DNA of 43,632 nt, from assembly GCA_033809415.1 (NCBI GenBank), contig JAPXLT010000001.1, forward strand, positions 1-43,632. The letters are read 5' to 3'. The position numbers were made by a program, and so were the translations under genes. Numbering within the stretch: position 1 is the stretch's first letter; each line of letters begins with the position of its first letter. This DNA is from Lentisphaeria bacterium (GTDB lineage: Bacteria > Verrucomicrobiota > Lentisphaeria > Oligosphaerales > Oligosphaeraceae). The notes beneath the pieces were generated by a model. That model was given only the letters and a program-made list of their open reading frames with translations, did not search any database and had not been told where the DNA came from. Below are positions 3-42,341 of the stretch, piece after piece.

Positions 3-69
3 GCAGGGGGCAGGGGGCAGGGGGCAGGGGGCAGGGGGCAGGGGGCAGGGGGCAGGGGGCAGGGGGCAG
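3..69. repeat. Tandem heptamer array (GGGGGCA) with 9 G5 tracts; G-quadruplex-prone; truncated by window start
   Basis: Direct reading: nine GGGGG runs separated by CA from position 6 to 66, running straight into module A at 70. Confidence 0.95.
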
Positions 70-256
70 GTTTAAAAAGTGGCGCAACCGTCCCGGTTGT
101 GATGGTGTCTTTAGTCTTTTCCTGCTGAATGGCGTGGTGCAGGTGCGGGGGCAGGGTGCAGGGGGCAGGTTTAAAAAGTGGCGCAACCGTCTCGGTTGTG
201 ATGGTGTCTTTAGTCTTTTCCTGCTGAATGGCGTGGTGCAGGTGCGGGGGCAGGGC
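70..256 (+). repeat. Module A' (REP-like hairpin plus 3' extension) as a 99-nt tandem duplication (copies start at 70 and 169)
   Basis: GTTTAAAAAGTGGCGCAACCGTC[C/T]CGGTTGTGATGGTGTCTTTAGTCTTTTCCTGCTGAATGGCGTGGTGCAGGTGCGGGGGCAGGG occurs twice head-to-tail. I see one substitution (C/T in the hairpin loop). The second copy ends early. Confidence 0.9.
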
Positions 257-401
257 ACTACTCTTAACTTAACGCTTTGTAGCCACACCGACGACGCAAT
301 TCCGTAAAGCCGACCTTGGCGCTCTTGGCGTCTTGGCGGTTAATTCTTCTTCATTGAACCGCCAAGCAACCGGAGAAAGCAACAAACCAAACCGCAAATC
401 C

Positions 402-479
402 GCATGCCGTTTCATCTGTCAAAACAACAACCCTATAGAAAATTTTCGTGCCTTTTCGTGCTTTTCGTTGTTAAAAAAA
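402..479 (+). repeat. D element copy 1 (forward)
   Basis: GCATGCCGTTTCATCTGTCAAAACAACAACCCTATAGAAAATTTTCGTGCCTTTTCGTGCTTTTCGTTGTTAAAAAAA matches the family consensus. It ends 3 nt from the XRE gene stop codon. Confidence 0.9.
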
Positions 480-1172: not shown

Positions 1173-1640
1173 GGCGCAGATTTCCAAGGCCAGGAATCGC
1201 TATGACTTCGGGAATCCTGACGATTCCTATGATTCCTATGATTTCGTAATGGGTTAGTCTTCTGTAGTGCGTAGTGCGGGTCAGACGTGGTGGACAGTGT
1301 GGACAGTGTGGACAGTGTGGACAGGACAAGACCCTCCCCGCACCCCACGACAGTCAGAATAATCACAACCGGGACGGTTGCGCTACTTTTTAAACCTGCG
1401 CCCCCTGCACCCGTTCCCAACGCACTACGCACCACGCACTACGCACCCCATTCCCTTGAACCCTGTACTACAGAAGACTCCTGAGGCATTACATGATTTC
1501 TATGTTTCTGCATGATTCTTTATGATTCTGCTTGCAAATTCGTTTTTGCGGCACTATTTTTTCACCGTGGTTCAGAAATCATCTAGCCCCCACCCACCCA
1601 GGGGGCAAACCACCTTCGGTACGTGCGCGCGAGGCAGCCA
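1173..1640 (-). repeat. Module B copy 1 (reverse orientation), interrupted by MITE copy 1
   Basis: Segments 1173-1245 and 1493-1640 together align with module B at 11468-11644 and 25617-25796 (e.g. TTTTTGCGGCACTATTTTTTCACCGTGGTTCAGAAATCAT...CCCACCCAGGGGGC). Confidence 0.85.
1246..1492 (+). mobile_element. MITE (element E) copy 1, 247 bp, TIRs and 8-bp target-site duplication ATGATTTC
   Basis: Left end GTAATGGGTTAGTCTTCTGTAGT; reverse complement of right end GTAATGCCTCAGGAGTCTTCTGTAGT. ATGATTTC flanks it on both sides (1238-1245 and 1493-1500). Inside are a (GTGGACAGT)x4 array and a module A hairpin. No ORF. Confidence 0.85.
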
Positions 1641-1732: not shown

Positions 1733-1803
1733 ATCGCAACCGGGACGGTCGCGCCACCTTTTAAACCTGCCCCCTGCCCCCTGCCCCCTGCCCCCTGCAC
1801 CCT
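1733..1803 (-). repeat. Module A (reverse) followed by C-rich heptamer array (CCCCTGC)n, ending 12 nt before the MFS ATG
   Basis: ATCGCAACCGGGACGGTCGCGCCACCTTTTAAAC then CCTGCCCCCTGCCCCCTGCCCCCTGCCCCCTGCACCC. Confidence 0.9.
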
Positions 1804-3081: not shown

Positions 3082-3326
3082 GTAATGGGTTAGTCTTCTG
3101 TAGTGCGGTGTGCGTGGTGCGGGTCAGACGTGGTGGACGGTGTGGACGTTGTGGACGTTGTGGACAGGACAAGAACATCCCCCCGCATCCCACGACAGTC
3201 AGAATAATCACAACCGGGACGGTTGCGCTACTTTTTAAACCAGCGCCCTCCCCCCTCGTACCCGTTCCCAACGCACTACGCACCACATTCCCCTGAACCC
3301 TGTACTACAGAAGACTGAGGCATTAC
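3082..3326 (+). mobile_element. MITE (element E) copy 2, 245 bp, same orientation as copy 1
   Basis: Left end GTAATGGGTTAGTCTTCTGTAGT; reverse complement of right end GTAATGCCTCAGTCTTCTGTAGT (20/23 TIR). Flanks are CGCAAAAG and TGCAAAAG (7/8 TSD). The internal 9-mer array is GTGGACGKT instead of GTGGACAGT. Confidence 0.85.
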
Positions 3327-3434: not shown

Positions 3435-4205
3435 ATGAAATGCGGATTGGCTTGCGAACGTTGTAAGTTCTTTACATTAATAGAGTTGCTTGTGGTCATA
3501 GCGATCATTGCCATATTGGCCTCGATGCTGCTGCCGGCTTTGAGCAAGGCTCGGGAGAAGGCACAGGCGACTTCCTGCATGGGGAATATACGTCAAATCG
3601 GCTTGGCTCAGAGTGCCTATCTGAGCGATTCCGGCGATATTTTTGCGCCAAACAGGGATCGGAGCAACGGCTCGACAAATATCAATACGTATACATCAAC
3701 GTGGTATGTGCTTTATGCACCCTACCTGGGGCTGACTGAGCAAGCGGCACGTTATCCTGTGCGCGGTTTGGTGTTGACCTGCCCAAGAATGCCGCGCTAT
3801 GTCGGAGGGCATTACAATGTCAGCTATGCCTATAATTGTGAAGCCTTCGGGGAGGCCGGCGTGACTTCAAAGAGCAATTACGGTTTGACCTGGTACTGGC
3901 CGAGGCTGCTCGAGAAGATCAAACGCCCGTCCATGCAGGCGACCCATGCAGATGCCTGCTGGTCCAATTCCACTGAGGATTATCGCACTCGCGGACGATA
4001 TATGCTGGACTATCAGGATTATCTTGCATTCCGACACAGCCGGAAAGCGAATGCGCTTTATGTGGATGGCCATGCCGAACCCGGCGATGCAGTCTGGCTC
4101 TGGCAGGGACACCCTGCCAGCTATCCCTGGAATATCTGTGGTCGCAATCGTGCTTGGTATGCGTATCCCGGTCGCAAGGCCTGGGAAGTGGCATATGGCT
4201 ATTAA
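3435..4205 (+). CDS. Prepilin-type N-terminal cleavage/methylation domain protein (T2SS pseudopilin-like, DUF1559 / H-X9-DG type)
   Basis: AGGAG RBS about 8 nt upstream. [31 protein letters not shown] prepilin motif. C-terminal H-X9-DG ([12 protein letters not shown]). Confidence 0.85.
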
Positions 4206-4208
4206 TCC

Positions 4209-4283
4209 GAGGGTCTCCCATCCGTCTGAGCAACAACCCTATATAAAATTTCGTGTTTTTTCGTGTGTTTCGTGGTTAAAAAA
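4209..4283 (+). repeat. D element copy 2 (forward)
   Basis: GAGGGTCTCCCATCCGTCTGAGCAACAACCCTATATAAAATTTCGTGTTTTTTCGTGTGTTTCGTGGTTAAAAAA. Starts 4 nt after the pseudopilin stop. Confidence 0.9.
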
Positions 4284-4328
4284 TCTTTCCTTGCGTAATC
4301 ACGAGTCTCTAACGTAAAATGAGGTGTC

Positions 4329-7765: not shown

Positions 7766-7895
7766 TCTTTTTTCTCCGACTGATCCGTCGGAGAAACCAA
7801 TAGACCAGATCATAAATCCGCGTGCCATCCCATCCGTCAGAGCAGCAACCCCTAGAAAATTTTCGTGCCTTTTCGTGTCTTTTCGTGGTTAAAAA
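7766..7895 (+). repeat. D element copy 3, long form (hairpin module plus D core)
   Basis: TTTTTTCTCCGACTGATCCGTCGGAGAAACC...GCGTGCCATCCCATCCGTCAGAGCAGCAACCCCTAGAAAATTTTCGTGCCTTTTCGTGTCTTTTCGTGGTTAAAAAC. Same architecture as 15218-15341 and 31714-31836 in reverse. Confidence 0.9.
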
Positions 7896-8005
7896 CGTAA
7901 AAACGTCGTTTTTGACTCGGCTTGAAAAATTCGGCATGGGGGATTATCTTATTATACTTTACCTTTTATTTTTCAAGTTTTTCCACGTTTTAAGGAGGAT
8001 TTTTT

Positions 8006-11228: not shown

Positions 11229-11669
11229 GGCAGGTGGCAGGGTGCGGGGTGCAGGTTTAAAAAGTGGCGCAACCGTCCCGGTTGTGTGGTGCAGGGTGCA
11301 GGGTGCGGGGTGCGGGGTGCAGGGTGCAGGGTGCAGGGTGCAGGTGTCAGGGTGCAGGGGGCGTAGAGGACTATGTTCTGTCCACCCTGTCCACCGCGTC
11401 CACAATGTCCACTTTATCCATAGTGTCCAGCCTGCCCCCTGCACCCTGCACCCTGCACCCTCCTTCCCTCGCGCACGCGGTAAGGGTGGTTCGCCCCCTG
11501 GTTGGGTGGGGCTTGGAGGCTGTCTGAACCACGGCGAAAAAATAGTGCCGCAAAAACGATTTTTCAAGCAGAATCATAAGAAGTCATGCAGAAACATAGA
11601 AAATCCACAGAAGTCATAGCAATTCCTAATCCTGGAAATCTGCCTTTTCGTGCCTTTCGTGGTTAAAAA
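11229..11669 (+). repeat. Full composite mosaic: G-heptamers / module A / G-heptamers / GTCCAC 9-mers / C-heptamers / module B / D tail
   Basis: G-heptamers 11229-11254. A at 11255-11287. (GGGTGCR)n at 11288-11366. Six 9-mers (GTCCACNNN) at 11380-11433. (CCCTGCA)n at 11434-11463. B at 11468-11644. Partial D (CCTTTTCGTGCCTTTCGTGGTTAAAAAC) at 11641-11669. Confidence 0.9.
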
Positions 11670-11754
11670 CTTTTTTGGACACCCCTAAAGTCGTGTCAGT
11701 CGCGTCAGAAGTTTGAAATGATGATTTGCTGAAATGCCTTCGGAAACTATGTTA

Positions 11755-11967
11755 AGTAGGGTGCAGGGTGCAGGGTGCAGGTTTAAAAAGTAGCGCAACC
11801 GTCCCGGTTGTGATGGTGCAGGGGACAGGGTGCAGGGTGCAGGGTGTGTCCCCTGTCCACGCCGTCCACCCTGTCCACGCCGTCCACCCTGTCCACCCTG
11901 TCCACCCTGTCCACTACGTCTGACCTGCCCCCTGCCCCCTGCACCCTGCACCCTGTCCCCTGCACCC
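11755..11967 (+). repeat. Short composite: G-heptamers / module A / 30-bp perfect inverted repeat enclosing eight GTCCAC 9-mers
   Basis: A at 11781-11816. GGTGCAGGGGACAGGGTGCAGGGTGCAGGG (11815-11844) is the exact reverse complement of 11937-11966. 9-mer units at 11855-11926. Ends 23 nt before the PHP gene ATG. Confidence 0.9.
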
Positions 11968-11989
11968 TTTACCAAAGAATTCTTGCCAG

Positions 11990-12886: not shown

Positions 12887-12926
12887 AAAATTTTCGTGCC
12901 TTTTCGTGTTTTTTCGTTGTTAAAAA
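12866..12926 (+). repeat. D element copy 5 (forward), overlapping the 3' end of the PHP gene
   Basis: CCAGAGCAACAAACCCTATAAAAAATTTTCGTGCCTTTTCGTGTTTTTTCGTTGTTAAAAAA. Confidence 0.9.
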
Positions 12927-15197: not shown

Positions 15198-15217
15198 GCG
15201 GACGAACGCACAATACA

Positions 15218-15341
15218 TTTTTTAACAACGAAAAGGCACGAAAAGGCAAATTTTTTATAGGGTGTTGCTTTGACGGATGGGATGGCACGCGGACTGTGAT
15301 CAGGGACGCTGGTTTCTCCGACGGATCCGTCGGAGAAAAAA
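15218..15341 (-). repeat. D element copy 6, long form (reverse), filling the convergent gap
   Basis: TTTTTTAACAACGAAAAGGCACGAAAAGGCAAATTTTTTATAGGGTGTTGCTTTGACGGATGGGATGGCACGC...GGTTTCTCCGACGGATCCGTCGGAGAAAAAA. Perfect 7-bp hairpin at 15316-15335. Confidence 0.9.
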
Positions 15342-15343
15342 GA

Positions 15344-19417: not shown

Positions 19418-19494
19418 TGGTGGGCCCAGCTGGACTTGAACCAGCGACCCGGTGATTATGAGTCACCTGCTCTGACCGACTGAGCTATGGGCCC
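19418..19494 (-). tRNA. tRNA with anticodon CAT (elongator Met or lysidine-modified Ile2), CCA encoded
   Basis: The reverse complement folds as a canonical cloverleaf: GGGCCCA-TA-GCTC-AGTCGGTCA-GAGC-A-GGTGA-CTCATAA-TCACC-GGGTC-GCTGG-TTCAAGT-CCAGC-TGGGCCC-A-CCA. Position 1:72 is paired and there is no GGG/CCC in the anticodon stem, so it is not an initiator. C4:G69/C5:G68 and the T-arm resemble what I recall of E. coli ileX. Confidence 0.93.
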
Positions 19495-19533
19495 GAAGTA
19501 TCTAAAAATATAAGTCTTTATCAGCGGGAAGTC

Positions 19534-19576
19534 AAGCAACACCCCTATTTTTTCGTGTGGTTCGTGGTTAAAAAAA
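19534..19576 (+). repeat. D element fragment, copy 9 (forward)
   Basis: AAGCAACACCCCTATTTTTTCGTGTGGTTCGTGGTTAAAAAAA. Inverted relative to copy 8, so the two bracket the tRNA. Confidence 0.8.
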
Positions 19577-19589
19577 TGGGTTTTGGCTA

Positions 19590-21176
19590 TCAGCCTGCAG
19601 TGTGATGTTGTGCTATGTCCGCAAATCGGATGCCATAGTTGGCAAGATATCGGGCAAGCCTGTCAGCGTCGTTCCTGCTCTTCTTGGCAAGGCGTGATAC
19701 GGCAAACAGTTTTCGCCCCGCTTCAGACATGTTTCTGCTGCTCGCGCAGACATGCAGGACTTCCTTCAATTGAACAAGCTCAAATGCGTCATAACGCGAT
19801 GCGTAATCCGATCCGAGAAGACGTTCGAGAAAACGATCCTTGCCTGCAAGCGTTGTCGGACGGTTCCGTTGCCATTCAGCCCGGACGGTCGCCACGTCAA
19901 TCCGTCCTCCCGGAGCCAGGGTGCCCAAGCGGGTGATGATCGCGTTAAGCTCGCGGAAATTTCCATGCCAGTCATGCTGGTTGGCAAAATCAAGGAATAC
20001 CTGCCACGCCTCCTTGTTGAAGCTGATGTGCTGCCCATGCTTCCGCGAAAACTGCTCGAGTTCATATTCGATGTTTGGCTCGATATCCTCACGGCGCTCC
20101 GCCAGCCCAGGCAGGCGAAAACTCCATAGATTGATGCGCTGGAACAGGTCGTCACGAAATTTGCCTACCGAAACAGCCTCCGCCAGATTCCGGTTAGTGC
20201 CGCAGATCAATTGGAAGGAACTCCCAGTCTCCTGGTCGGAACCAAGGGGAAGAAAAGTCTTTTCCTCGATAGCACGAAGCAGCATGGCTTGTTCATCCGT
20301 TCCAAGCTCCGCAATTTCATCCAGAAACAAGATGCCGCCATCCGCAGTTTTTAGCAGGCCTGGGCGGTCCTTCACCGCTCCGGTGAAGGCGCCACGGGTA
20401 TGCCCGAACAGCGTTGCCATGGCATGGTCCCCACGCAATGTGGCGCAGTTCACATCGACAAAGTTCCCTGATACCTGACGGTTCAGTTTCTTCAATTCGT
20501 AGATTTTGCGCGCAAGATGGGATTTGCCGGCACCGGTAGGTCCTGTCAGAAGAATCGGCTCCCGGGAACGGACGGCTACACGCTCGATCGTCTCGATCAG
20601 GGCGTTGAATCCAGGGTTTCGTGTTTCGATGCCGGATTTAAGGAATGCCAGATCATTCTGGCGCTCCACCGCAAAGCGCTTTGCCAGCAGATCATACCGG
20701 GACAGGTCCAAGTCAATGATTGTATATTTCCCCTGGGCGGGATTGCTGCCATGCGACGGTTGCGTCTGAATCAACTTCCCTGGAAGATGATGCGATTCAT
20801 TCAACAAAAACAGGCATATCTGCGCAACGTGCGTGCCGGTCGTGATATGGATGTAGTAGTTGTTCTCCTCAGGGATGAATTTCTGAAGGCGGCTGAAGTC
20901 GTACAACTTGCCATAGACCTCCTCGAAATCCCATGGGTCGCGCAGCTCCAAGAGCTCGGGAATAACTGTGGTGTCAGGAGAACATGCCAGGATGTCCTTC
21001 GCAATGACATCAAACAAACCCTGGAAACGCTCCTGATACCAAATGTGAAATTCATCAAAATGAAGATCATCCTGCATCGCTAATGCAATGGATGGACGCC
21101 AGAAAGCCCAGCGCGTGCTTTCACGGCGATGGCTGTCAAGAGTCGTCCCTAAAAATGAGTAAATGATGTTCTTCAT
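19590..21176 (-). CDS. rtcR: Sigma-54-dependent transcriptional regulator RtcR (CARF-like N-domain, AAA+ and HTH)
   Basis: 528 aa. Collinear with E. coli RtcR as I recall it: NPWDFEEVY, IHITTGTHVAQIC, IIDLDLSRY, GPTGAGKSHLAR, GAFTGA, NFRELN, NDADRLARYL. Confidence 0.9.
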   Translation of the reverse strand: MKNIIYSFLGTTLDSHRRESTRWAFWRPSIALAMQDDLHFDEFHIWYQERFQGLFDVIAKDILACSPDTTVIPELLELRDPWDFEEVYGKLYDFSRLQKFIPEENNYYIHITTGTHVAQICLFLLNESHHLPGKLIQTQPSHGSNPAQGKYTIIDLDLSRYDLLAKRFAVERQNDLAFLKSGIETRNPGFNALIETIERVAVRSREPILLTGPTGAGKSHLARKIYELKKLNRQVSGNFVDVNCATLRGDHAMATLFGHTRGAFTGAVKDRPGLLKTADGGILFLDEIAELGTDEQAMLLRAIEEKTFLPLGSDQETGSSFQLICGTNRNLAEAVSVGKFRDDLFQRINLWSFRLPGLAERREDIEPNIEYELEQFSRKHGQHISFNKEAWQVFLDFANQHDWHGNFRELNAIITRLGTLAPGGRIDVATVRAEWQRNRPTTLAGKDRFLERLLGSDYASRYDAFELVQLKEVLHVCASSRNMSEAGRKLFAVSRLAKKSRNDADRLARYLANYGIRFADIAQHHTAG

Positions 21177-21303
21177 TTTTTCTTCATTTTTCTAATGTTT
21201 TAGATTATTTTCTAAATAATATATCATTACTTACCTCTTGTGCCAATTCCTTTTTCTGCAAGGTTGGCGGGAAAACCCGGTTTCGAGTTTGCAAACTTGA
21301 AGT

Positions 21304-21319
21304 TGGCATCTATGTTGCT
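21304..21319 (+). promoter_or_regulatory. Sigma-54 (-24/-12) promoter for rtcA-rtcB
   Basis: TGGCATCTATGTTGCT has the exact spacing of TGGCACG-N4-TTGCW. It lies 39 nt upstream of the rtcA ATG, with an AGGAG RBS in between, in the gap divergent from rtcR. Confidence 0.8.
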
Positions 21320-21357
21320 ATAGACTCGATTCAGGTACTTTTTTACAGGAGCAGATA

Positions 21358-22377
21358 ATGACAAGCATTGACGGTTCTTTTGGCGAAGGCGGCGGGCAGA
21401 TCCTTCGCACTTCGCTTAGCCTGGCAGCAATAACAGGAAAGCCAATGCATATTAAGAATATCCGCGCCAACCGCAAGAAGCCCGGCCTGATGCGTCAGCA
21501 TCTTGCCTGTGCAAAGGCAGTGGCGGAAATCTGCCGCGGCGAACTCGAGGGCGCGGAGTTGAATTCCCAGGCGTTGACCTTGAAGCCAGGCAGGATTCAT
21601 GGAGGCGACTACCGCTTCGTTATCGGAAGCGCGGGCAATACGCTTCTGCTGGCGCAGGCGGTACTGCCAGTGCTCCTGTTCGCGGATAGCCCATCCCGGG
21701 TTGTGCTGCAAGGCGGCACATATACCATGCAGGCACCGGTCTTCGACTTCTTCGAGCGCGTTTATCTGCCTTGCCTGCATAAAATGGGGTTGGAGGTGGA
21801 GGGCACCATGGAACGCGCCGGTTTCTATCCTGCCGGAGGCGGCAGGGTCGTATTGTTCGTAAAGCCCGCCCGGGTCTGGAGGCAGCTTTCGCTCATCGAG
21901 CGCGGGGAGCTTCAGGAAGCACGGGTGACTGCCATTGGCAGCGGTCTGGATCAATCTATCCTCACGGATGAGCTGAAGATTTTCCAGGCCGGGCTGGCAG
22001 GCGCGTTGCCCTGGCAGGCGTTTGCCAGGAATGTCGAATCCGACGGCCCCGGCAACGTGCTTTTTGCCGAACTCGCATACGAAAATCTGACAGAGCTTTT
22101 CAGCGTTTGCGGGAGGTATGGCCTATCCAGAAAAAGTGTGGCCAAAAGTGCCATCAGCCATGTCAAGCAATACCTCGGACAGGGCTGGGTGGTAGGACAA
22201 TTCCTGGCGGATCAGCTGATGTTGCCCCTGGCTCTGGGAGCAGGAGGAAATTATCTGACAGGTCCCCCGACTCTGCACGCCGAAAGCAACCGTCAGGTCA
22301 TTAGGAAATTCCTGGATGTGAAAGTGGAATTCAAGAATATAACAGACAATCTTTGTGAAATGGAGGTGCAAAAATGA
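21358..22377 (+). CDS. rtcA: RNA 3'-terminal phosphate cyclase
   Basis: IDGSFGEGGGQILRTSLSLAAITGKPMHIKNIRANRKKPGLMRQHL, GGDYRFVIGSAGN, FYPAGGG and the LHAESN histidine region are collinear with E. coli RtcA. Confidence 0.92.
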   Translation: MTSIDGSFGEGGGQILRTSLSLAAITGKPMHIKNIRANRKKPGLMRQHLACAKAVAEICRGELEGAELNSQALTLKPGRIHGGDYRFVIGSAGNTLLLAQAVLPVLLFADSPSRVVLQGGTYTMQAPVFDFFERVYLPCLHKMGLEVEGTMERAGFYPAGGGRVVLFVKPARVWRQLSLIERGELQEARVTAIGSGLDQSILTDELKIFQAGLAGALPWQAFARNVESDGPGNVLFAELAYENLTELFSVCGRYGLSRKSVAKSAISHVKQYLGQGWVVGQFLADQLMLPLALGAGGNYLTGPPTLHAESNRQVIRKFLDVKVEFKNITDNLCEMEVQK

Positions 22378-23579
22378 AATGGATCAAGCAGGATGAAACC
22401 CTGCGTGTGCCCATCAAGAGCTGGTGTGAACCCATCGAGGAAGGGGCGTTGCAGCAGGCAATGGACCTGGCGCGCCACCCGGTCATCGAGCATCATGTGG
22501 CCCTGATGCCGGATTGCCACCTTGGTTACGGAATGCCGATCGGCGGCGTCATCGCAGTCAAAGATGCCATCTTGCCAAGTGCAGTCGGCGTGGATATCGG
22601 CTGCGGAATGGTCGCAGTCGAGACCAATCTTCCCGCAGAACGGCTCGCCAAAGTTACGGCGCGGCGTGCAATCCAGGAAAAGCTGAAGGCGCGAATTCCT
22701 GTCGGGGAAGGGGTGGCGCATCGGCAGAAACAGGAGTGGGAGGGCTTCGAACGCTACCTTGACGCCAACGGCACGGTCTGCGACTTCCCAAACGCTTTGG
22801 ACAGGCGCAACCTGGGTACGCTGGGCGGAGGGAACCACTTCATCGAACTGCAGAAATCAGACACCGGCTTTATCTGGCTGATGATCCATTCCGGAAGCCG
22901 CAACCTGGGGCAGCGGGTGGAAAAGCATTACCAGGCGAAGGCCAAGAAACTCAATGAGGCATTCAAAGCCAAGCTGCCTAATCCGGTACTGGCGTTCCTC
23001 CCCATGGAAACCAAGGAAGGAAAGGACTATTTCCGTGACATGACATTCGCCTTGGAATATGCGCTGGAAAACCGCCGCCGAATGATGATCATCTTCAAGG
23101 AAATCCTGCTCGAAACAGTCCCGGAAACGGAATTCCTGCAGGAAGTCAATATCCACCATAACTACGCTGCGCTGGAATCGCATTTCGGACAGAATCTATA
23201 CATCCACCGCAAAGGTGCAACCAGTGCAAAAAAAGATGAAATAGGAATCATCCCAGGCTCCATGGGAACGGCAAGCTACATCGTTCGGGGACTGGGCAAT
23301 CCAGAGTCGTTCATGAGCTGCTCGCATGGCGCAGGACGAACGATGAGCCGCACGGCAGCAAGCGCAAACCTGACCGTCGAGGAGTGCAACGCGGCAATGG
23401 AGGGAATCGTCTTCGAGCGTTGGAGCAAGTATAGGGGATTCGACAAGCGCCACAAGGGACGCCTCGATCTCTCCGAAGCACCACAGGCATATAAGCCAAT
23501 CGACGAAGTCATCGCTGCCGAAGCAGACCTGGTCGAACCAATTGTCCGACTGACGCCAATGGCAGTACTCAAAGGATAG
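22374..23579 (+). CDS. rtcB: RNA-splicing ligase RtcB
   Basis: ATGA overlap with rtcA. Motifs PDCHLGYGMPIGGV, DIGCGM, GGGNHFIE, HHNYA, GSMG and SCSHGAGR. Confidence 0.95.
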   Translation: MKWIKQDETLRVPIKSWCEPIEEGALQQAMDLARHPVIEHHVALMPDCHLGYGMPIGGVIAVKDAILPSAVGVDIGCGMVAVETNLPAERLAKVTARRAIQEKLKARIPVGEGVAHRQKQEWEGFERYLDANGTVCDFPNALDRRNLGTLGGGNHFIELQKSDTGFIWLMIHSGSRNLGQRVEKHYQAKAKKLNEAFKAKLPNPVLAFLPMETKEGKDYFRDMTFALEYALENRRRMMIIFKEILLETVPETEFLQEVNIHHNYAALESHFGQNLYIHRKGATSAKKDEIGIIPGSMGTASYIVRGLGNPESFMSCSHGAGRTMSRTAASANLTVEECNAAMEGIVFERWSKYRGFDKRHKGRLDLSEAPQAYKPIDEVIAAEADLVEPIVRLTPMAVLKG

Positions 23580-23582
23580 GGC

Positions 23583-23702
23583 AGGGTGCGGGGTGCGGGG
23601 TGCGGGGTGCGGGGTGCGGGGTGCGGGGTGCGGGGTGCGGGGTGCAGGGGGCAGGGGGCAGGGGGCAGGGGGCAGGGGGCAGGGGGCAGGGGGCAGGGGG
23701 CA
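23583..23702. repeat. Two adjoining G-rich heptamer arrays: (GGGGTGC)x8 then (GGGGGCA)x8
   Basis: Read directly. Sixteen G4-G5 tracts in about 120 nt, starting 4 nt after the rtcB stop codon. Confidence 0.95.
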
Positions 23703-23703
23703 G

Positions 23704-23767
23704 GTTTAAAAAGTGGCGCAACCGTCCCGGTTGTGATGGTGCCTTTAGTCTTTTCCCGCTGAATGAC
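23704..23767 (+). repeat. Module A' (forward)
   Basis: GTTTAAAAAGTGGCGCAACCGTCCCGGTTGTGATGGTGCCTTTAGTCTTTTCCCGCTGAATGAC. Near-identical to 70-133. Confidence 0.9.
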
Positions 23768-23795: not shown

Positions 23796-24020
23796 GTCCA
23801 CAGCGTCCACAATGTTCACCCCGTCCACCCAGTCCACCCAGTCCACCCAGTCCACAGCGTCCACCCAGTCCACCCAGTCCACCCAGTCCACCCAGTCCAC
23901 AGCGTCCACCCAGTCCACCCAGTCCACCCAGTCCACAGCGTCCACCCAGTCCACCCAGTCCACCCAGTCCACCCAGTCCACCCAGTCCACCCAGTCCACC
24001 CAGTCCACCCAGGCCACAAT
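23796..24020. repeat. Tandem 9-mer array, 25 units (GTCCACCCA punctuated by GTCCACAGC)
   Basis: Unit-by-unit reading: AGC, AAT, a degenerate unit, CCAx3, AGC, CCAx4, AGC, CCAx3, AGC, CCAx8, then a degenerate end unit GGCCACAAT. Confidence 0.95.
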
Positions 24021-24039: not shown

Positions 24040-25446
24040 AATGCTAACTTGTTTTTCAGGCAAAAAAGGCTTCTAATGACATGGATTTTTCCCCAGCGTC
24101 GGTCGGATTTTCTGCCTGATCGCATCCCAGTCCGCCGCCAGTTTGGGCGGCTTAATCATTGATGCGTCCTACTGTGGCGCGGCATGATACAATACCTTGA
24201 ATTTGCTCCACAAATTTCTGCGTGTCGCTTGAACAAGGCACGGCTCTCCAGGGGGAGAACGCTCCCCGGCGGGCGCTAAGGCGTTCAATTAAAAGCGCAA
24301 TAAACATTTTACCGTGCAGCCATGCCTGAGCGCTGCTGTCCGTATACTTTGGCAGCGCCCCGATCCTGGCTATGCTTTTGAATCTCTTGAACACAGGCTC
24401 CACCTGCCACCGGAGCCTGTATAGTTCAAGGACTTGTTTCAGGCTGAAAATCTCCGTGGGCAACGTCGTTATCAAGACAATGAAATCGCATGCGAGAAGC
24501 GCAAGCTCGGAGGTAGTCTTCTGCTTCTTTGAAGCCGCAACACTGTTCAGGACTCTTCTGGCGCGTTCCGCCGATTCGTCGTTTCTCCGGATGATGCAGA
24601 CGCGGCACGGCAGCTTCTCCCCCGGCGCATCGCCATGAATGAAGACATCGGCCTCGCCGCACATCCCATCACGCGGATGTGCCTTGAAAAGACCTCGGAT
24701 GTCGAAGGCACTTCCATCTCCGTTGTACAATGGAAGGGTTCCACTGTCCCAGCGGACGCAGCTGTATCCGCCTCCCGCCGCTACGTGCCGGATGCTGTTG
24801 AACCTGCAGTATCCCCAGTCGCTCACCATGATGTCATTCGGCTCGATTTCAAACTGCTCCAGCCCTTCAGCCACCGCTTTTGTAAGGTTGAAGGAGTCGC
24901 AAGCCATGTCCGGTAGCGAATAGCTGTAATGCAGCTTCCATCGCGTGCCGAACTGCCCCGTTTCTCTGATGCTCACTCCGTCAGCCAGACGGATGCGGTA
25001 GCCGTCGAAATCCGCGCCGCAGCTGACATTGCCGAACATTGCCGCGCAAAGCTCCTTGAACATATCGCTGCTTTTGCGGAGGCGTTTCAGGAGTGCTACA
25101 TCGCTCAAGGATGCAATGCCCGCCTCGGCGGCGATTGCGGATGTCTCACGGAGCGAGTACCCGCAGAGGAGGTGGAGCATAAGCACATGCATCAGCCTCT
25201 CCGGTTCCTTGTCTTTCCGCTGTCCTTTCAGCACATTGGTGGCCGCAGCGATCTCCCGCCAATTAGCCGGAAAACATGCCAGAAAATCGTCCCACGCCGA
25301 AATGTCATCTGTCTTGAAAACGCTTGAAGGTGTGTCGCTCATAATCTGCATCCTGTTGCCTGATTCTCAACGAAAAAACAACATAAAAATAATGTAAACC
25401 ATCAGCAACGAAATGCAATCTATGAAATCGAAAATAAGTTAGCAAA
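24040..25446 (-). mobile_element. IS4-family insertion sequence (about 1.4 kb); ends approximate
   Basis: Single DDE transposase ORF. Terminal inverted repeat core TGCTAACTTRTTTT at 24042-24055 and, reverse-complemented, at 25431-25444. I could not resolve the target-site duplication in the A/T-rich flanks. Confidence 0.75.
24152..25351 (-). CDS. IS4-family DDE transposase
   Basis: 399 aa. C-terminal YRLRWQVEPVFKRFK fits the IS4-family Y-(2)-R-(3)-E-(6)-K signature. N-terminal LMHVLMLHLLCGYSLRETSAIA...SDVALLKRLRKS is typical of IS4-like transposases. Confidence 0.85.
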   Translation of the reverse strand: MQIMSDTPSSVFKTDDISAWDDFLACFPANWREIAAATNVLKGQRKDKEPERLMHVLMLHLLCGYSLRETSAIAAEAGIASLSDVALLKRLRKSSDMFKELCAAMFGNVSCGADFDGYRIRLADGVSIRETGQFGTRWKLHYSYSLPDMACDSFNLTKAVAEGLEQFEIEPNDIMVSDWGYCRFNSIRHVAAGGGYSCVRWDSGTLPLYNGDGSAFDIRGLFKAHPRDGMCGEADVFIHGDAPGEKLPCRVCIIRRNDESAERARRVLNSVAASKKQKTTSELALLACDFIVLITTLPTEIFSLKQVLELYRLRWQVEPVFKRFKSIARIGALPKYTDSSAQAWLHGKMFIALLIERLSARRGAFSPWRAVPCSSDTQKFVEQIQGIVSCRATVGRIND

Positions 25447-25450
25447 ATAA

Positions 25451-25796
25451 GGGCAGGGTGCAGGGGTCAGGGTGCAGGGGTCAGGGTGCAGGAGGCAGGG
25501 GCAGGGGCAGGGGCAGGGGCAGGGGCAGGGTGCGTCTTCTGTCCACAATGTCCACAGCGTCCACCCTGTCCACCCCGTCCACCCTGTACCCTGCCTGCCT
25601 CGCATCCTCCTGCCGTTACGCGCGCGCACGTACCGAGGGTGGGTTGCCCCCTGGGTGGGTGGGGCTGGATGATTTCTGAACCACGGCGAAAAAATAGTGC
25701 CGAAAAACCGAAATTTCAAGCAAAATCATAAGAAGTTATACAGAAACATAGAAAATCCTACAAAATCCTACAATTCCTAAGCCTGGGAATCTGCGT
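25451..25796 (+). repeat. Composite mosaic: G-rich heptamer/hexamer arrays / GTCCAC 9-mers / module B copy 3
   Basis: GGGCAGGGTGCAGGGGTCAGGG... then a (GGGGCA)x5-6 run inside the 25497-25538 G-rich stretch. Five 9-mers at 25547-25591. B at 25617-25796 (…CTGAACCACGGCGAAAAAATAGTGCCGAAAAACCGAAATTTCAAGCAAAATCATAAGAAG…). Confidence 0.9.
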
Positions 25797-29386: not shown

Positions 29387-31702
29387 ATGTTCAGCTTAGT
29401 CAGAACGAAAACTTTTTTCTTCTTGAGTATCGCAGTATTCTTCTGGGGAGGATGCCAGACCATCGAGCACGAGGGTTTTGCCCAGAAAGACCAGGCTTTT
29501 GATGCGGCCCTGCCGGAACCGCGCCCGTTGCCCTTCCAGCAGATCACCAGCCGCAAAGCGGAAATGATGGATGAAACCCCCCTGGCAGTCGCTGCTGACA
29601 CGGACGCCGAGAATCCCTCGATCGAGCGCAAGCTGGACATGCCAGCCCGCGTCTCATCGAAAGAAGGCGAAAGTTTTGCAGCCTCGGAGTATCCTGACAA
29701 TCTGATCAAGGGAGTGCCGGACCCGGAAACGGAGCTCGAGGTCGGCTTTGTCTTCAATGGCGATTCCATCGATGTGGTCACCAAAACTTTCGCTTCCGAA
29801 AACATGCTGAATTTCAGCTACCTGGTGGACCCCGCAGTGAAGGGGGCGATCACCATGGAGATCAAAACCAAAATGACGGCGCGGGAAACCTGGGCGACCT
29901 TCGAGCATATCCTCTGGCTGGCCGGTGCATACGCCTCGAAAAATCCAGGATTTATACACATCCTGCCGTTTGACAAGATGCCGAAGGAGCGCAGGATTTT
30001 TGCCGATCATGAAATCCAGCCCAATGTCATTGTCGATTTCCTGTACGTCCGCTACAAAAAAAGCGCCGATATCGCCAATCTGATCAAGCCATTTATGACC
30101 GATGGCGCAACAGTGACCGACCTGGTGGACTCGAATACGCTGATTGTAGTCGAGGCGCCGGCCAATATCAATAAAATCCGGGAGCTGGTCAAACGTCTCG
30201 ATAATAAAGGCGAGCGTGCCTGGCCAGTCAAATGTTTCCCCTGCAAAGAGGTCGATGCCGAGGAGCTGGCCGCCGAACTGCAACTGCTGTTGCCGGTGGT
30301 GGGACTACCGGTAGCCACCGGAACGGGCACTAGCGGGGGAGCGATCAAAGTCACCGCGCTGCCGCGGATCGGCATCATCATCGTTTCCGCAGCCCTCGAG
30401 GAAGTTGTCGATGAAGTCGGAAACTGGATCAAGTCCCTCGACCGCTCCGACCTGCTCGACCGCGAGGAAATTTACTTTTACAATGTGCGCCATAGCACGG
30501 TGGAAAAACTGAGCGCATCCCTGGATGCATTCTTCAATACCGTCACCAGCAGCAGCCCAACGACGGCATCCACGACCAAAAGCACCTCCGCCAAGGCGTC
30601 AGCAACCACTGGCAGTGACTTGTCAACCGGCAGCACCAGTCAGCGCAATACTTCACAGACCCGCAGCACAAGCTCGAACAGGCGCACATCCCAGGACAAG
30701 CAGAGCGGAGAGAAAAATTCGCTGACCACCACCGTTTTTGATACGGAAGTGATCGTTTATACGGATGATGAAAGCAACCGGATTACCCTGAAGACGACAC
30801 CGCGCACCTGGAACTTGATCAAGCTGTTTCTCGAACGCCAGGACGTCCCGCCGCGCCAGGTGGCCATCCAGGCCATTATCACCGAAATCAAGCTCGATAA
30901 GTCCAACGAATTCGGCATCAGCTACAGCCTCGAACGGGCGCTGCTCAATGGCACCCTGGCCGCCGGAAGCTTCGGGGCGGATACTGTCCTGAAATCAACA
31001 GCGCCGGGCAGCTTGATCGGAGGTAGCGGCGAGGCCGGCGGCGATACCTTGAATGCCTTGACCTCGACGGGGCTGGGCTTGCTGTTCAACAACAAGGCCG
31101 GAGATACCTTGGCCTTCCTGAAAGCCTATGCCGGCGAAGGCAACACACGGGTGCTGTCCGAACCGCAACTGGTGGTGCTCAGCGGATCATCGGGTTCGAT
31201 GCAGGCTGGCGAATCCGTGCCAATCGCTTCGGAATCGACTACCTACAGTGACAGCAGCAATAATTTCCGCACCAACTATGAATACAAGGATGTCGGCGTG
31301 ATCATGACCGTCACCCCCTACATCACCGCCGGACATGATGTGCGAATGGTGATCGAACAGGAAGTCTCGAGCGTCTCCAGAAACGCCGATACGACCAATC
31401 CGACCATCTCCAAGAAAACAGTCTCTTCCGAGCTGGTAGTCGCTGACAATACGACGTTGCTGATGGGCGGCATGATCCAGAATACCAGCACCACTGGACG
31501 CTATGGAATCCCGTTTCTGATGGATATCCCATACATAGGATTCATCTTCGGCTACAACACCACCTCGAACGTCCGCACCGAATTGCTGATCCTGCTCACC
31601 GTCAATGTCCTGGATACCAAAAACCCCCAGGAGGAACTGATCCGCCGCTACAAAGCCTCACTCGAGGAAATTGCCAAAAGCCGCGATACCGAACTGTTTT
31701 GA
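29387..31702 (+). CDS. Secretin (GspD/PilQ family outer-membrane channel), probable lipoprotein
   Basis: Track TTG 29381 trimmed to ATG 29387. Lipobox-like FFWGGC. Ser/Thr-rich linker. C-terminal secretin domain (VLSEPQLVVLSGSSGSMQAGESVPI...GIPFLMDIPYIGFIFG). Confidence 0.85.
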   Translation: MFSLVRTKTFFFLSIAVFFWGGCQTIEHEGFAQKDQAFDAALPEPRPLPFQQITSRKAEMMDETPLAVAADTDAENPSIERKLDMPARVSSKEGESFAASEYPDNLIKGVPDPETELEVGFVFNGDSIDVVTKTFASENMLNFSYLVDPAVKGAITMEIKTKMTARETWATFEHILWLAGAYASKNPGFIHILPFDKMPKERRIFADHEIQPNVIVDFLYVRYKKSADIANLIKPFMTDGATVTDLVDSNTLIVVEAPANINKIRELVKRLDNKGERAWPVKCFPCKEVDAEELAAELQLLLPVVGLPVATGTGTSGGAIKVTALPRIGIIIVSAALEEVVDEVGNWIKSLDRSDLLDREEIYFYNVRHSTVEKLSASLDAFFNTVTSSSPTTASTTKSTSAKASATTGSDLSTGSTSQRNTSQTRSTSSNRRTSQDKQSGEKNSLTTTVFDTEVIVYTDDESNRITLKTTPRTWNLIKLFLERQDVPPRQVAIQAIITEIKLDKSNEFGISYSLERALLNGTLAAGSFGADTVLKSTAPGSLIGGSGEAGGDTLNALTSTGLGLLFNNKAGDTLAFLKAYAGEGNTRVLSEPQLVVLSGSSGSMQAGESVPIASESTTYSDSSNNFRTNYEYKDVGVIMTVTPYITAGHDVRMVIEQEVSSVSRNADTTNPTISKKTVSSELVVADNTTLLMGGMIQNTSTTGRYGIPFLMDIPYIGFIFGYNTTSNVRTELLILLTVNVLDTKNPQEELIRRYKASLEEIAKSRDTELF

Positions 31703-31713
31703 GCACAACACAT

Positions 31714-31836
31714 TTTTTAACAACGAAAAGACACGAAAAGACACGAAAATTTTTTTATAGGGTTGTTGCTTCGACGGATGAAATGGCACGCGAATTTGTG
31801 ATCTGGCCTATTGGTTTCTCCAACGGATCAGTCAGG
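31714..31836 (-). repeat. D element copy 12, long form (reverse; hairpin module degenerate)
   Basis: TTTTTTAACAACGAAAAGACACGAAAAGACACGAAAATTTTTTTATAGGGTTGTTGCTTCGACGGATGAAATGGCACGCGAA...GGTTTCTCCAACGGATCAGTCAGGG. Confidence 0.85.
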
Positions 31837-32002
31837 GCGTTTCATTCTCTTTCATGGATAGTGGCAAGAACGGGAAACGAATGGCTGATCGGCGATGTAG
31901 GAATTAGCCCTGAAGGGGCGTGACATACCAGCCCAGGGCAACGCCCTGGGTTCGGATACCCATCCATCCGCAAAGCCCTGAAAGGGCGCGACATAATCTC
32001 TG

Positions 32003-32092
32003 TCCATCGTCCATCGTCCATCGTCCATTCAGCAGTCCATTCTTGTCCATTCCGTCCATCTTGTCCATTCCTGTCCCTGTCCATCGTCCATA
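32003..32092. repeat. Degenerate GTCCAT-based tandem array (7- to 12-nt units)
   Basis: GTCCATCGTCCATCGTCCATCGTCCATTCAGCAGTCCATTCTTGTCCATTCCGTCCATCTTGTCCATTCCTGTCCCTGTCCATCGTCCAT. Confidence 0.85.
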
Positions 32093-32133
32093 AAAAATCT
32101 TTCCCAAAAAACAAGATTCTGGGTGATAGTAGT

Positions 32134-32218
32134 ACGAAAATTTTTTTATAGGGTTGTTGCTTCGACGGATGAAATGGCATGTGGTTTAAAAAGTAGCGCA
32201 ACCGTCTCGGTTGTGATT
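32134..32218. repeat. D fragment (reverse) fused to module A (forward); the same junction as 40319-40430 in the opposite orientation
   Basis: ACGAAAATTTTTTTATAGGGTTGTTGCTTCGACGGATGAAATGGCATGTG-GTTTAAAAAGTAGCGCAACCGTCTCGGTTGTGAT. Confidence 0.85.
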
Positions 32219-32290
32219 GCTGTTTGCCCTCCCACGCTCGCACGCTCCCGTATGCAAGGGGCGCGTGACATAATCCCTAATCCAAATACC

Positions 32291-33943: not shown

Positions 33944-34013
33944 TTTTTAACAACGAAAAGCACAAACAGGCACGAAAATTTTCCGCGCTTTCCGTGCTTT
34001 CCGTGGACAAAAA
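33944..34013. repeat. Inverted pair of D elements (copy 14a, and 14b of the CCGTG variant) in the convergent gspE/recQ gap
   Basis: TTTTTAACAACGAAAAGCACAAACAGGCACGAAAATTTTCCGCGCTTTCCGTGCTTTCCGTGGACAAAAAT. Begins immediately after the ATPase TAA. Confidence 0.85.
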
Positions 34014-34031
34014 TAGTTTGTGGATGCCAGT

Positions 34032-36097: not shown

Positions 36098-36284
36098 GGA
36101 CGGGACACGGACTGGACACGGACTGGACACGGACTGGACACGGACTGGACACGGACTGGACACGGACTGGACACGGACTGGACACGGACTGGACACGGAC
36201 TGGACACGGACGGGACACGGACTGGACACGGACTGGACACGGACTGGACACGGACTGGACACGGACTGGACACGGACGGGACAG
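36098..36284. repeat. Tandem 11-mer array, 17 units (GGACTGGACAC x14 and GGACGGGACAC/G x3)
   Basis: Counted directly: 187 nt = 17 x 11, with variant units at positions 1, 11 and 17. It starts 15 nt upstream of the recQ ATG. Confidence 0.95.
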
Positions 36285-36293
36285 ACATTTCAG

Positions 36294-36363
36294 CACCCTG
36301 TCCCCTGCACCCTACCCCCTGCCCCCTGCCCCCTGTCCCCTGTCCCCTGCACCCTGCACCCGC
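36294..36363. repeat. C-rich heptamer array (CCCTGCA / CCCCTGC / CCCCTGT), overlapping the 3' end of larA
   Basis: CACCCTGTCCCCTGCACCCTACCCCCTGCCCCCTGCCCCCTGTCCCCTGTCCCCTGCACCCTGCACCCGC. Confidence 0.9.
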
Positions 36364-38917: not shown

Positions 38918-38954
38918 GTTTTCGTGCCTTTTCGTGTCTTTTCGTTGTTAAAAA
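38918..38954 (+). repeat. D element fragment, copy 16 (forward)
   Basis: GTTTTCGTGCCTTTTCGTGTCTTTTCGTTGTTAAAAA. Confidence 0.85.
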
Positions 38955-40318: not shown

Positions 40319-40430
40319 ATCACAACCGGGACGGTTGCGCCACCTTTTAAACCGCTTGCCATTCCATCCGTCAAAGCAGCAACCCTACAAAAAATTTTCG
40401 TGTCTTTTCGTGTCTTTTCGTTGTTCAAAA
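40319..40430. repeat. Module A (reverse) fused to D element copy 18 (forward)
   Basis: ATCACAACCGGGACGGTTGCGCCACCTTTTAAAC-CGCTT-GCCATTCCATCCGTCAAAGCAGCAACCCTACAAAAAATTTTCGTGTCTTTTCGTGTCTTTTCGTTGTTCAAAA. The FAD oxidoreductase stop (TCA on plus, 40425-40427) is inside GTTCAAAA. Confidence 0.9.
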
Positions 40431-42340: not shown

Positions 42341-42341
42341 C

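What the first reader, a model, noticed from the sequence alone, without database searches (positions are those of the whole stretch)
70..256. Module A has the hallmarks of a REP: a GT[A/G]G head and an imperfect palindrome, in 10 copies
Seen: all ten copies read AAAAA-GT(A/G)G-CGCAACCG-TCC-CGGTTGTG-AT. They lie at 70, 169, 1362-1396(rev), 1733-1766(rev), 3207-3240(rev), 11255, 11781, 23704, 32184 and 40319-40352(rev). The stem is 8 bp with one G.T pair. Copy 1733-1766 carries two substitutions (CGCGACCG...CGGTTGCG), and both keep pairing: one converts the G.T pair to G-C, the other A-T to G.T. Established: REPs are defined by a conserved GTAG/GTGG tetranucleotide 5' of an imperfect palindrome. 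They are mobilised or processed by RAYT (TnpA-REP, IS200/IS605-like HUH) transposases that recognise exactly that head plus hairpin. Inference: a cognate RAYT may exist elsewhere in this genome; none is in this window. At 70-256 the module is part of a 99-nt unit duplicated in tandem.
Basis: partly seen in the sequence, partly recalled or inferred. Interest (0 to 1): 0.65.

Follow-up and report, generated by a model that had tools for sequence, protein, structure and literature searches.

The report
RAYT-type REP hairpin repeat family
Module A is a real 35-nt repeat that belongs to a family of short hairpin repeats (REPs) which, in related bacteria, sit on either side of genes for a domesticated transposase (RAYT), so it is a new example of a known kind of element.

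Summary
Ten near-identical copies of GGTTTAAAAR-GTRG-CGCAACCG-TCY-CGGTTGTG-AT lie in the window, against 0 expected by chance. All are intergenic. The 99-nt tandem duplication at 48-255 is real.

The REP reading is supported by evidence from outside the window:
- The exact 23-nt core occurs in at least 52 loci of Lentisphaerota, Verrucomicrobiota and Brocadiaceae genomes.
- Variants show compensatory stem changes: 6 of 8 pairs change on both sides.
- Y1_Tnp genes that JGI names 'REP element-mobilizing transposase RayT' are flanked by palindromes of this architecture (GTRG, 8-bp stem, 3-nt loop). These are 39 times denser within 150 bp of the gene ends than further away.
- The closest RAYTs (L053, L135, L136) carry the window's extended head, TTTAAAA(A/G)GTGGCGCAA.
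- The only solved-structure match is E. coli TnpAREP (4ER8).

Not shown: a RAYT in the window organism's own genome. None is in the window, and the rest of that genome could not be searched.

In this genome the copies are singletons, not inverted doublets. They sit in at least five different sequence contexts, often inside heptamer-array palindromes, so A is a discrete module and not a fixed part of one MITE.

GTAG/GTGG REPs in the PVC superphylum are already published (Di Nocera 2013). Verdict: new member of a known kind, moderate interest.

The parts
69..103 (+). Module A copy 1: GGTTTAAAAA + GTGG + 8-bp stem, TCC loop + AT. It lies in the first unit of the 99-nt tandem duplication.
168..202 (+). 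Module A copy 2 (TCT loop), in the second unit of the 99-nt tandem duplication.
48..255 (+). 99-nt unit duplicated in tandem (2.1 copies, 98% matches). It carries copies 1 and 2, and G-rich heptamer arrays precede each copy.
1362..1396 (-). Module A copy 3 (GTAG head). It sits in the type I composite 1246-1492, whose inverted ends are GTCTTCTGTAG...CTACAGAAGAC.
1733..1767 (-). Module A copy 4, the variant GTGGCGCGACCGTCCCGGTTGCG with an AAAAG head. It lies 58 nt upstream of the probable MFS start codon at 1815, on the opposite strand.
3207..3241 (-). Module A copy 5, in the type I composite 3082-3326. It is the only copy antisense to both neighbouring genes.
11254..11287 (+). Module A copy 6, about 50 nt after the terminator-like hairpin that follows the pyruvate phosphate dikinase gene. 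It lies inside a GGGTGCA heptamer array and is followed by T instead of AT.
11780..11814 (+). Module A copy 7. It interrupts a GGGTGCA heptamer array in phase (AG|unit|GGTGC). It forms a side hairpin in the long palindromic composite 11745-11975.
23703..23737 (+). Module A copy 8, after an 18-copy heptamer array. Its context is the same as that of copies 1 and 2.
32183..32217 (+). Module A copy 9 (GTAG head, TCT loop). It is fused to the upstream repeat module that begins with the ACGAAAAG-type tandem repeat and TATAGGGTTG, and lies about 75 nt upstream of the probable start codon at 32291.
40319..40353 (-). Module A copy 10 (AAAAG head), with the same upstream module as copy 9.

Best explanation
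Module A is a GTAG/GTGG-type REP (repetitive extragenic palindrome). It belongs to a family whose partner enzyme is a RAYT, a domesticated HUH Y1 transposase of the IS200/IS605 kind, from a clade that is widespread in the PVC superphylum.

Shown here:
- The unit is about 35 nt: an A/T-rich head (GGTTTAAAAR), the GTRG tetranucleotide, an 8-bp stem and a TCY loop.
- The stem is maintained by compensatory changes across genomes.
- The same architecture, and in the closest cases the same head and stem sequence, flanks RAYT genes in related bacteria.

Inferred from the E. coli TnpAREP work (4ER8; Ton-Hoang 2012, as summarised in PMC3733652):
- When the strand carrying GTRG becomes single-stranded, for example at a replication fork, the hairpin forms.
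- The RAYT binds the hairpin together with the 5' GTRG and cuts and rejoins the DNA there.
- This spreads or maintains the copies. It leaves neither terminal inverted repeats nor target duplications.

The copies in this genome are single units. Several have landed in, or been built into, heptamer-array palindromes and a promoter-proximal repeat module. Once present they are probably transcribed. Seven of the eight copies whose orientation can be judged are in sense with a neighbouring gene, and the G.T pair would be G.U in RNA. They may therefore act secondarily as RNA hairpins.
For: Abundance and spread:
- Ten copies against 0 expected.
- The exact core is found in at least 52 loci of three PVC phyla.

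Stem:
- Variants AACCG/CGGTT, AAGCG/CGCTT, AGGCG/CGCCT, GAGCC/GGCTT, and CGC..GCG, GGC..GCC, TGC..GCA keep pairing.
- 95.8% of cells pair, against 82.7% in shuffles. Six of 8 pairs change on both sides. Forty double-changed cells are seen against 13.2 in shuffles. Slid controls pair at 32-40%.

RAYT association:
- RAYT-like ORFs next to copies pass the Pfam Y1_Tnp cut-off.
- 4.37 palindromes per kb lie within 150 bp of RAYT ends, against 0.11 per kb further away in the same loci.
- L053's 226-aa RAYT is followed by an array of GGTTTAAAAAGTGGCGCAACCGGCCCGG.
- L135 and L136 are flanked by TTTAAAA(A/G)GTGGCGCAAGCGGCCCGCTTG(C/T)G.
- In L147 the REP GTAGTGCAACCGTCCCGGTTGCA overlaps the RAYT start codon.
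- JGI names the family RayT.
- The only PDB match is TnpAREP 4ER8, aligned across the HUH and Y..NP motifs.

Unit in the window and prior reports:
- The boundaries are sharp and there is no target duplication.
- GTAG and GTGG REPs are already reported in PVC bacteria (PMC3733652).
Against: - No RAYT was found for the window's own organism. None is in the window.
- Contigs from four DNA runs that hold this organism matched the L053 and L008 RAYT genes only at low depth, so those matches come from other organisms. That test needs at least 80% DNA identity, so it is weak.
- All ten copies are singletons or a tandem pair. None forms the inverted doublets typical near RAYT genes and in the verrucomicrobial loci.
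- No presence/absence polymorphism of A was seen among strains of this species, so there is no direct sign of recent movement.
- RAYT-driven REP mobility has never been shown directly for any family.
Confidence: 0.8

Rival explanations
1. Module A is primarily an RNA-level element kept by selection on transcripts. It could be a stabilising hairpin, a 5' leader or an attenuator, and its link with RAYT genes would be incidental.
For: - The G.T pair exists only on the GTRG strand, where it would be G.U in RNA.
- Seven of the eight copies whose orientation can be judged are in sense with a neighbouring gene.
- The A core is abundant in metatranscriptome contigs.
- Copies 9 and 10, and their counterparts in another Lentisphaeria MAG, sit 75-100 nt upstream of genes, behind a shared repeat module.
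Against: - The 39-fold enrichment of this architecture at RAYT gene ends is not explained.
- In relatives the same repeats are inserted in frame inside aconitase and other genes. That is transposon-like behaviour, not regulatory behaviour.
- No Rfam family matches, even at E up to 5.
- One copy is antisense to both of its neighbours.
- RNA contigs cannot exclude DNA carry-over and have no strand information.
Confidence: 0.1
2. Module A is only an internal piece of larger composite MITEs. These would be the heptamer-array palindromes or the TIR-bounded element of about 240 bp, moved by a DDE transposase such as the one at 24152-25351. A would never be a unit of its own.
For: - Every window copy lies inside some larger repeat.
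- The composite 11745-11975 folds as one long hairpin (z = -7.6) with A as a side branch.
- The type I composite has inverted ends.
Against: - The 35-nt unit keeps 0-2 substitutions while its 3' context falls into at least five unrelated classes.
- A composite of the same kind exists without A at 25451-25600.
- In L004, A plus the right half-composite abuts a gene's stop codon without the left half.
- In Verrucomicrobiota and Brocadiaceae the same core occurs without any of these composites.
- A has no terminal inverted repeats and no target duplication.
Confidence: 0.05
3. Module A is a protein-binding or transcription signal. It could be a promoter -10-like TTTAAA with an operator hairpin, or a weak terminator when read on the opposite strand.
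For: - On the opposite strand the hairpin is followed by CTACTTTTTAAA. The terminator scan flags three copies in that orientation and two more (1364, 3209) on the GTRG strand, before ATTATTCT.
- In copies 9 and 10, TTGCTT/TTGACG-like and TTTAAA hexamers lie upstream of genes.
Against: - The promoter scan reports no site at any A copy, and the total number of promoter-like sites equals the shuffle expectation.
- On the opposite strand the T-run starts 4 nt after the stem, and that strand has an A.C mismatch.
- Orientation relative to genes is not consistent with a terminator role.
- The RAYT association is not explained.
Confidence: 0.05

Closest known systems
GTAG-type REPs and their RAYTs (E. 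coli REP/BIME with TnpAREP, PDB 4ER8; Pseudomonas REPINs; Stenotrophomonas SMAG)
   Same: - A GT[AG]G tetranucleotide sits directly 5' of a short imperfect palindrome.
- There are many dispersed intergenic copies.
- Sub-families differ by complementary stem changes, and G.T pairs occur.
- The cognate Y1 HUH gene is flanked by the repeats.
- The RAYT aligns with 4ER8 over the HUH and Y..NP motifs.
   Different: - In this genome the copies are singletons with a conserved A/T-rich 10-nt 5' extension. They are not inverted doublets.
- The 23-nt core is identical across three phyla, whereas classical REPs are usually specific to a genus or species.
- The RAYT is only distantly related to the E. coli enzyme (E = 0.005).
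PVC GTAG repeat families of Di Nocera et al. 2013 (Opitutus terrae GTAG-17 to GTAG-20, which include GTGG heads; Rhodopirellula baltica)
   Same: - Same superphylum.
- GTAG and GTGG heads, and stems of 6-9 bp.
- Intragenic in-frame copies are reported in that paper and seen here in aconitase genes of relatives.
- Some families there are likewise embedded in longer palindromes.
   Different: The consensus sequences of those families appear only in a figure that could not be read here, so identity with module A is untested. Lentisphaerota and Brocadiaceae are not mentioned in that paper.
IS200/IS605 elements and their non-autonomous derivatives (PATEs)
   Same: Y1 HUH enzyme, recognition of a subterminal DNA hairpin on one strand, and no target duplication.
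   Different: Module A has no distinct left and right ends enclosing a gene. The RAYT clade carries the features that set RAYTs apart from IS200 transposases: it appears to be single-copy, it is flanked by REPs, and in L147 it sits inside a sua5-murJ gene row.

Membership tests
REP (GTAG superfamily) | Short (20-40 nt) imperfect palindrome able to form a stem-loop | tested here: met
   The stem is 8 bp with a 3-nt loop and is the MFE fold of all four variants tested. Covariation supports it across 45 variants.
REP (GTAG superfamily) | Conserved GT[AG]G tetranucleotide at the 5' foot of the hairpin | tested here: met
   All 10 window copies have GTGG (6) or GTAG (4). The head is nearly invariant in the 45 variants.
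REP (GTAG superfamily) | Many dispersed, mostly extragenic copies in one genome | tested here: met
   Ten copies in 43.6 kb, all intergenic. Between 31 and 74 contigs per run carry the core in DNA runs that hold this organism. The whole-genome count was not measured.
REP (GTAG superfamily) | A RAYT gene in the same genome, flanked by copies of the repeat | not testable with these tools
   No RAYT is in the window. The rest of the genome (species of MAG GCA_012800115.1) could not be searched. The feature is met in relatives for the same repeat family: L045, L008, L053, L135, L136, L147, with 39-fold enrichment at RAYT ends.
REP (GTAG superfamily) | Binding and cleavage of the single-stranded repeat by the RAYT | not testable with these tools
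   This needs an in vitro assay.
REPIN / BIME (inverted REP doublet) | Two REPs in inverted orientation, a short distance apart, forming a larger hairpin | tested here: not met
   No inverted pair exists in the window. The nearest neighbours are a direct tandem pair (79 and 178) or lie more than 350 nt apart. Doublets are the rule in the verrucomicrobial loci and next to RAYT genes.
MITE of a DDE transposon | Terminal inverted repeats and a target-site duplication | tested here: not met
   Alignment of the 10 copies with 30-nt flanks shows no duplication flanking the unit and no inverted repeats other than the hairpin itself.
Known structured RNA family (Rfam 15) | Match to a curated covariance model | tested here: not met
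   No family covers any A copy at gathering score over the whole window. At E up to 5, tested on 31650-32450 only, none covers copy 32193.

The most novel reading that the evidence does not exclude
The 35-nt unit (A/T-rich head plus one hairpin) may be a REP that is mobilised singly. It would insert without duplication into G-rich heptamer arrays and promoter-proximal modules. It would also travel between PVC phyla together with its RAYT, which would explain why the identical 23-nt core appears in Lentisphaerota, Verrucomicrobiota and Brocadiaceae.

Next to RAYT genes there are arrays of truncated heads: L053 736-830, L133, and L136 upstream. These would then be the footprints of RAYT cut-and-rejoin events at GGTT.
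Probability: 0.15. Interest if true: 0.6.

Novelty: new member of a known kind. Interest (0 to 1): 0.35.

Why it matters
REP/RAYT systems are well studied in Proteobacteria but barely described in the PVC superphylum.

This family offers a compact REP with an unusually well-conserved core across three phyla. It comes with a matching RAYT clade of thousands of members (5,899 proteins at E <= 1e-20). There are also natural arrays of partial repeats beside the enzyme gene. Together these make it a usable system for asking how RAYTs recognise and process their hairpins.

For annotating this genome the practical point is that the intergenic repeats are REP-type selfish or domesticated DNA. They are not genes or regulatory RNAs.

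Tried and rejected
- Looking for the window organism's own RAYT by laying contigs of four DNA runs on RAYT genes. On L053 only contigs at 2.5-2.7x matched, and on L008 only short pieces at 3.4x and 8.7x. This organism's contigs run at about 7-23x in those runs, so the matches come from other organisms.
- Guessing that the RAYT homologues seen on many contigs (P0006, P0188) belong to the window organism. Their loci have 59% G+C and none of the window's repeats. No RAYT locus shares more than the REP itself with the window.
- Looking for filled versus empty sites among strains, upstream of the PHP gene. All strains carry copy 11790. The one different contig (L138) has an IS next to the composite.
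- RNA evidence. Two calls were lost to the repeat filter. The one that ran shows A in RNA-derived contigs but has no strand or end resolution.
- A clean empty site for A in the upstream repeat module (copies 9 and 10 compared with the A-less copies at 437 and 31756). The sequences diverge at the junction and no exact boundary could be derived.
- A promoter reading. The promoter scan places no site at any A copy.
- Rfam. No match.

Full report
**1. The observation**

The pattern GTRGCGCAACCGTCYCGGTTGYG, allowing three mismatches, matches exactly ten times. The matches are at 79, 178, 11264, 11790, 23713 and 32193 on the + strand, and at 1364, 1735, 3209 and 40321 on the - strand. None of 100 shuffles gave a match.

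Every copy is preceded by GGTTTAAAAR. That 14-nt head motif occurs nowhere else in the window, and no partial or degenerate copies exist.

Aligning the copies with 30-nt flanks shows full conservation from GGTTTAAAAR through the hairpin to AT. Conservation drops abruptly after that. The unit is therefore about 35 nt.

Two copies read AAAAG, two have a TCT loop, and copy 11264 is followed by T and not AT.

The 99-nt tandem duplication at 48-255 is confirmed. All copies are intergenic once probable start codons are used.

**2. The organism**

The window encodes DUF1559/N-methyl proteins and an Acido-Lenti-1 RNA. It is found in biogas and anaerobic-digester metagenomes. One of its genes occurs in MAG GCA_012800115.1.

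Its repeats are shared most with Lentisphaeria and Oligosphaeraceae MAG loci. It is a PVC bacterium, most likely of Lentisphaerota.

**3. The repeat outside the window**

The loci come from Lentisphaeria, Oligosphaeraceae, Victivallaceae, many Verrucomicrobiota (Chthoniobacterales, Udaeobacter, Prosthecobacter) and Brocadiaceae.

In the verrucomicrobial loci the repeat usually forms an inverted doublet with a second palindrome. That partner has the same architecture but a different stem, for example GTGGCGCAACCGTCCCGGTTGCG ... CGCAAGCCAGAGGCTCGCGCCAC. In Brocadiaceae it carries an AATTTCAAAC head, and in Lentisphaeria a GGTT(T/C)AAAAA head.

I collected every sequence within five substitutions of the consensus, without asking for pairing. 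After I dropped five that were the palindrome read on its other strand or a doubtful match, this gave 45 distinct variants. On these:
- 95.8% of cells pair, against 82.7% in shuffles.
- Six of eight pairs show changes on both sides.
- Forty cells are double-changed, against 13.2 in shuffles.
- Sliding the partner by one to three columns drops pairing to 32-40%.

The hairpin is therefore under selection. Inside the window the only variant copy (1735) has two single-sided changes that preserve pairing. That is compatible with selection but weak evidence on its own.

**4. The enzyme**

A motif scan of the fetched loci found two Y1 HUH ORFs next to copies:
- In L045 the ORF lies between an upstream + copy and a downstream - copy.
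- In L008 it lies inside a 1381-aa open frame.

Both pass the Pfam Y1_Tnp cut-off.

I aligned the two and scanned metagenome contigs, which gave 80 further loci. Across the 84 RAYT loci (these 80 plus L133-L136), palindromes with a GTRG head, 8-bp stem and 3-nt loop occur at 4.37 per kb within 150 bp of the RAYT ends. Further away in the same loci they occur at 0.11 per kb. They mostly appear as +/- doublets on both sides of the gene. The loop region CGTC(C/T)CG dominates.

The RAYTs closest to the L008 enzyme carry repeats that match the window's unit even in the head:
- L053 has an intact 226-aa ORF. It is followed by an array of GGTTTAAAAAGTGGCGCAACCGGCCCGG.
- L135 and L136 are flanked by TTTAAAA(A/G)GTGGCGCAAGCGGCCCGCTTG(C/T)GAT.
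- In L147 a single GTAGTGCAACCGTCCCGGTTGCA overlaps the start codon of a RAYT wedged between sua5 and murJ.

The family has 5,899 members at E <= 1e-20, and JGI labels many of them 'REP element-mobilizing transposase RayT'. The only solved structure that L053's protein matches is E. coli TnpAREP, 4ER8. The alignment runs across the HUH histidines and the Y..NP tyrosine motif.

**5. What could not be shown**

No RAYT lies in the window. I could not search the rest of this organism's genome. Laying contigs of four DNA runs that hold the organism onto the L053 and L008 RAYT genes gave matches only at 2.5-8.7x depth. The organism's own contigs run at about 7-23x in those runs, so the matches belong to other community members. 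That test would miss a RAYT with less than 80% DNA identity. Candidates chosen because they appear on many contigs (P0006, P0188) come from other genomes with 59% G+C. Strains of this species show no presence/absence difference for copy 11790.

**6. Context in the window**

The copies are all single units, and 79 and 178 form a direct tandem pair. They sit in at least five 3' contexts:
- A composite of about 240 bp with inverted ends (1246-1492 and 3082-3326).
- A module that starts with the ACGAAAAG-type tandem repeat and TATAGGGTTG, found 75-100 nt upstream of genes (32183 and 40353).
- The 99-nt unit (69, 168 and 23703).
- Heptamer-array palindromes (11254 and 11780).
- A unique context at 1733.

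A composite of the heptamer type exists without A at 25451-25600. At 11780 the unit interrupts the GGGTGCA array in phase. In L004, A plus the right half of the first composite abuts a gene's stop codon without the left half. The composite 11745-11975 folds into a long hairpin (z = -7.6) with A as a side branch.

A therefore behaves as a discrete module.

**7. Rival readings**

An RNA-level role is plausible as a secondary function. Supporting points are the G.U-compatible pair, seven of eight judged copies in sense orientation, and the presence of A in RNA-derived contigs. It does not explain the association with RAYT genes. It also does not explain the in-frame insertions of the same repeats in aconitase genes of relatives.

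The promoter scan places no site at A, and its overall count equals the shuffle expectation. The terminator scan flags five copies, three on the opposite strand (where the T-run starts 4 nt after the stem) and two on the GTRG strand before ATTATTCT, but orientation relative to genes is not consistent with a terminator role. Rfam has no matching family.

**8. Comparison with what is known**

Di Nocera et al. 2013 (PMC3733652) describe:
- GTAG-tagged REP families in the PVC superphylum, with Opitutus terrae having mostly GTGG heads, and also Rhodopirellula baltica.
- Sub-families that differ by complementary stem changes.
- G.T pairs.
- REPs embedded in longer palindromes.
- Intragenic REPs.
- RAYT genes flanked by REPs.

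Module A fits this description on every feature that could be tested. The exception is that it does not form inverted doublets in this genome.

It is a new member of a known kind. Three features are noteworthy but not category-changing: the conserved A/T-rich head, the identity of the core across three phyla, and the arrays of truncated heads beside RAYT genes.

Noticed in passing
L008:3470-7615 (- strand): A 1381-aa open frame is a DUF1156/N6-methylase gene. It contains a complete RAYT domain (aa 435-511 match Y1_Tnp) and seven REP copies, all in frame and without stops. The REPs read as GNRDGCPTL and GGASVPLA. Many database RAYTs are likewise called as fusions, with D-Tyr-tRNA deacylase, MoaE, a cobalamin-binding protein, or a type I restriction R subunit.
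   Followed up: partly
L043:1100-1202, L012:90-189, L031:5396-5452, L047:3074-3130: In Verrucomicrobiota, REP doublets of this family are inserted in frame at two different sites of aconitase genes. They add peptides of about 20-35 aa such as GSATVPVA...EARVT and SGASVPLANSENATETVAPL.
   Followed up: partly
L053:736-830; L133 downstream of 923; L136:1-30: Beside RAYT genes there are head-to-tail arrays of truncated repeat units. One is a 26-nt unit, TAAAAAGTGGCGCAACCGGCCCGGTT, and another is a 16-nt unit, TAATAGTGGCGCAAGC. They look like repeated cut-and-rejoin products.
   Followed up: no
window 362-477, 4201-4284, 7766-7896, 12891-12917, 15208-15343, 31703-31833, 32134-32182, 33944-34020, 38919-38945, 39332-39408, 40349-40433, 42223-42343, 43461-43486: A second abundant intergenic repeat. 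It has 2-3 tandem copies of TTTTCGTGCC (or ACGAAAAGNC on the other strand). In the fuller copies these are followed by TTTTTTATAGGGTTGTTGCTTYGACGGATGRAATGGCA. The shorter entries (12891-12917, 33944-34020, 38919-38945, 39332-39408, 43461-43486) show only the tandem-repeat part. It occurs with A (copies 9 and 10) and without, and is shared with another Lentisphaeria MAG. Its position upstream of genes suggests a promoter or leader module.
   Followed up: partly
window 3-70, 11288-11359, 23579-23704, 25451-25530, 36296-36361; 9- to 11-mers at 1290-1324, 11851-11914, 23817-24017, 36098-36283, 43535-43632: Intergenic regions are packed with G-rich heptamer arrays (GGGGCAG, GGGTGCA) and with 9-mer (GTGGACAGT / CTGTCCACC type) and 11-mer (GGACTGGACAC) arrays, up to 22 copies long. 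They are often arranged as long imperfect palindromes. The 9-mers resemble TGTCCACA-type DnaA boxes (from memory, not tested).
   Followed up: no
window 31906-31950 (-): Acido-Lenti-1 RNA (RF01687) at 38.2 bits, against a gathering score of 37. It lies between the upstream repeat module at 31703-31833 and copy 9.
   Followed up: no
window 24152-25351 (-); L138:1612-2750: A DDE_Tnp_1 transposase gene lies between heptamer-array composites in the window. In one strain (L138) a DDE_3 element and a Cas3 gene replace the sequence directly left of the composite that carries copy 11790. The breakpoint is at AAGTAGGGTGCAGG.
   Followed up: no
window 19418-23579: tRNA-Met, an RtcR-type sigma-54 activator (19590-21176, -) and two divergent genes downstream, which looks like an RNA-repair (rtc) locus.
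   Followed up: no
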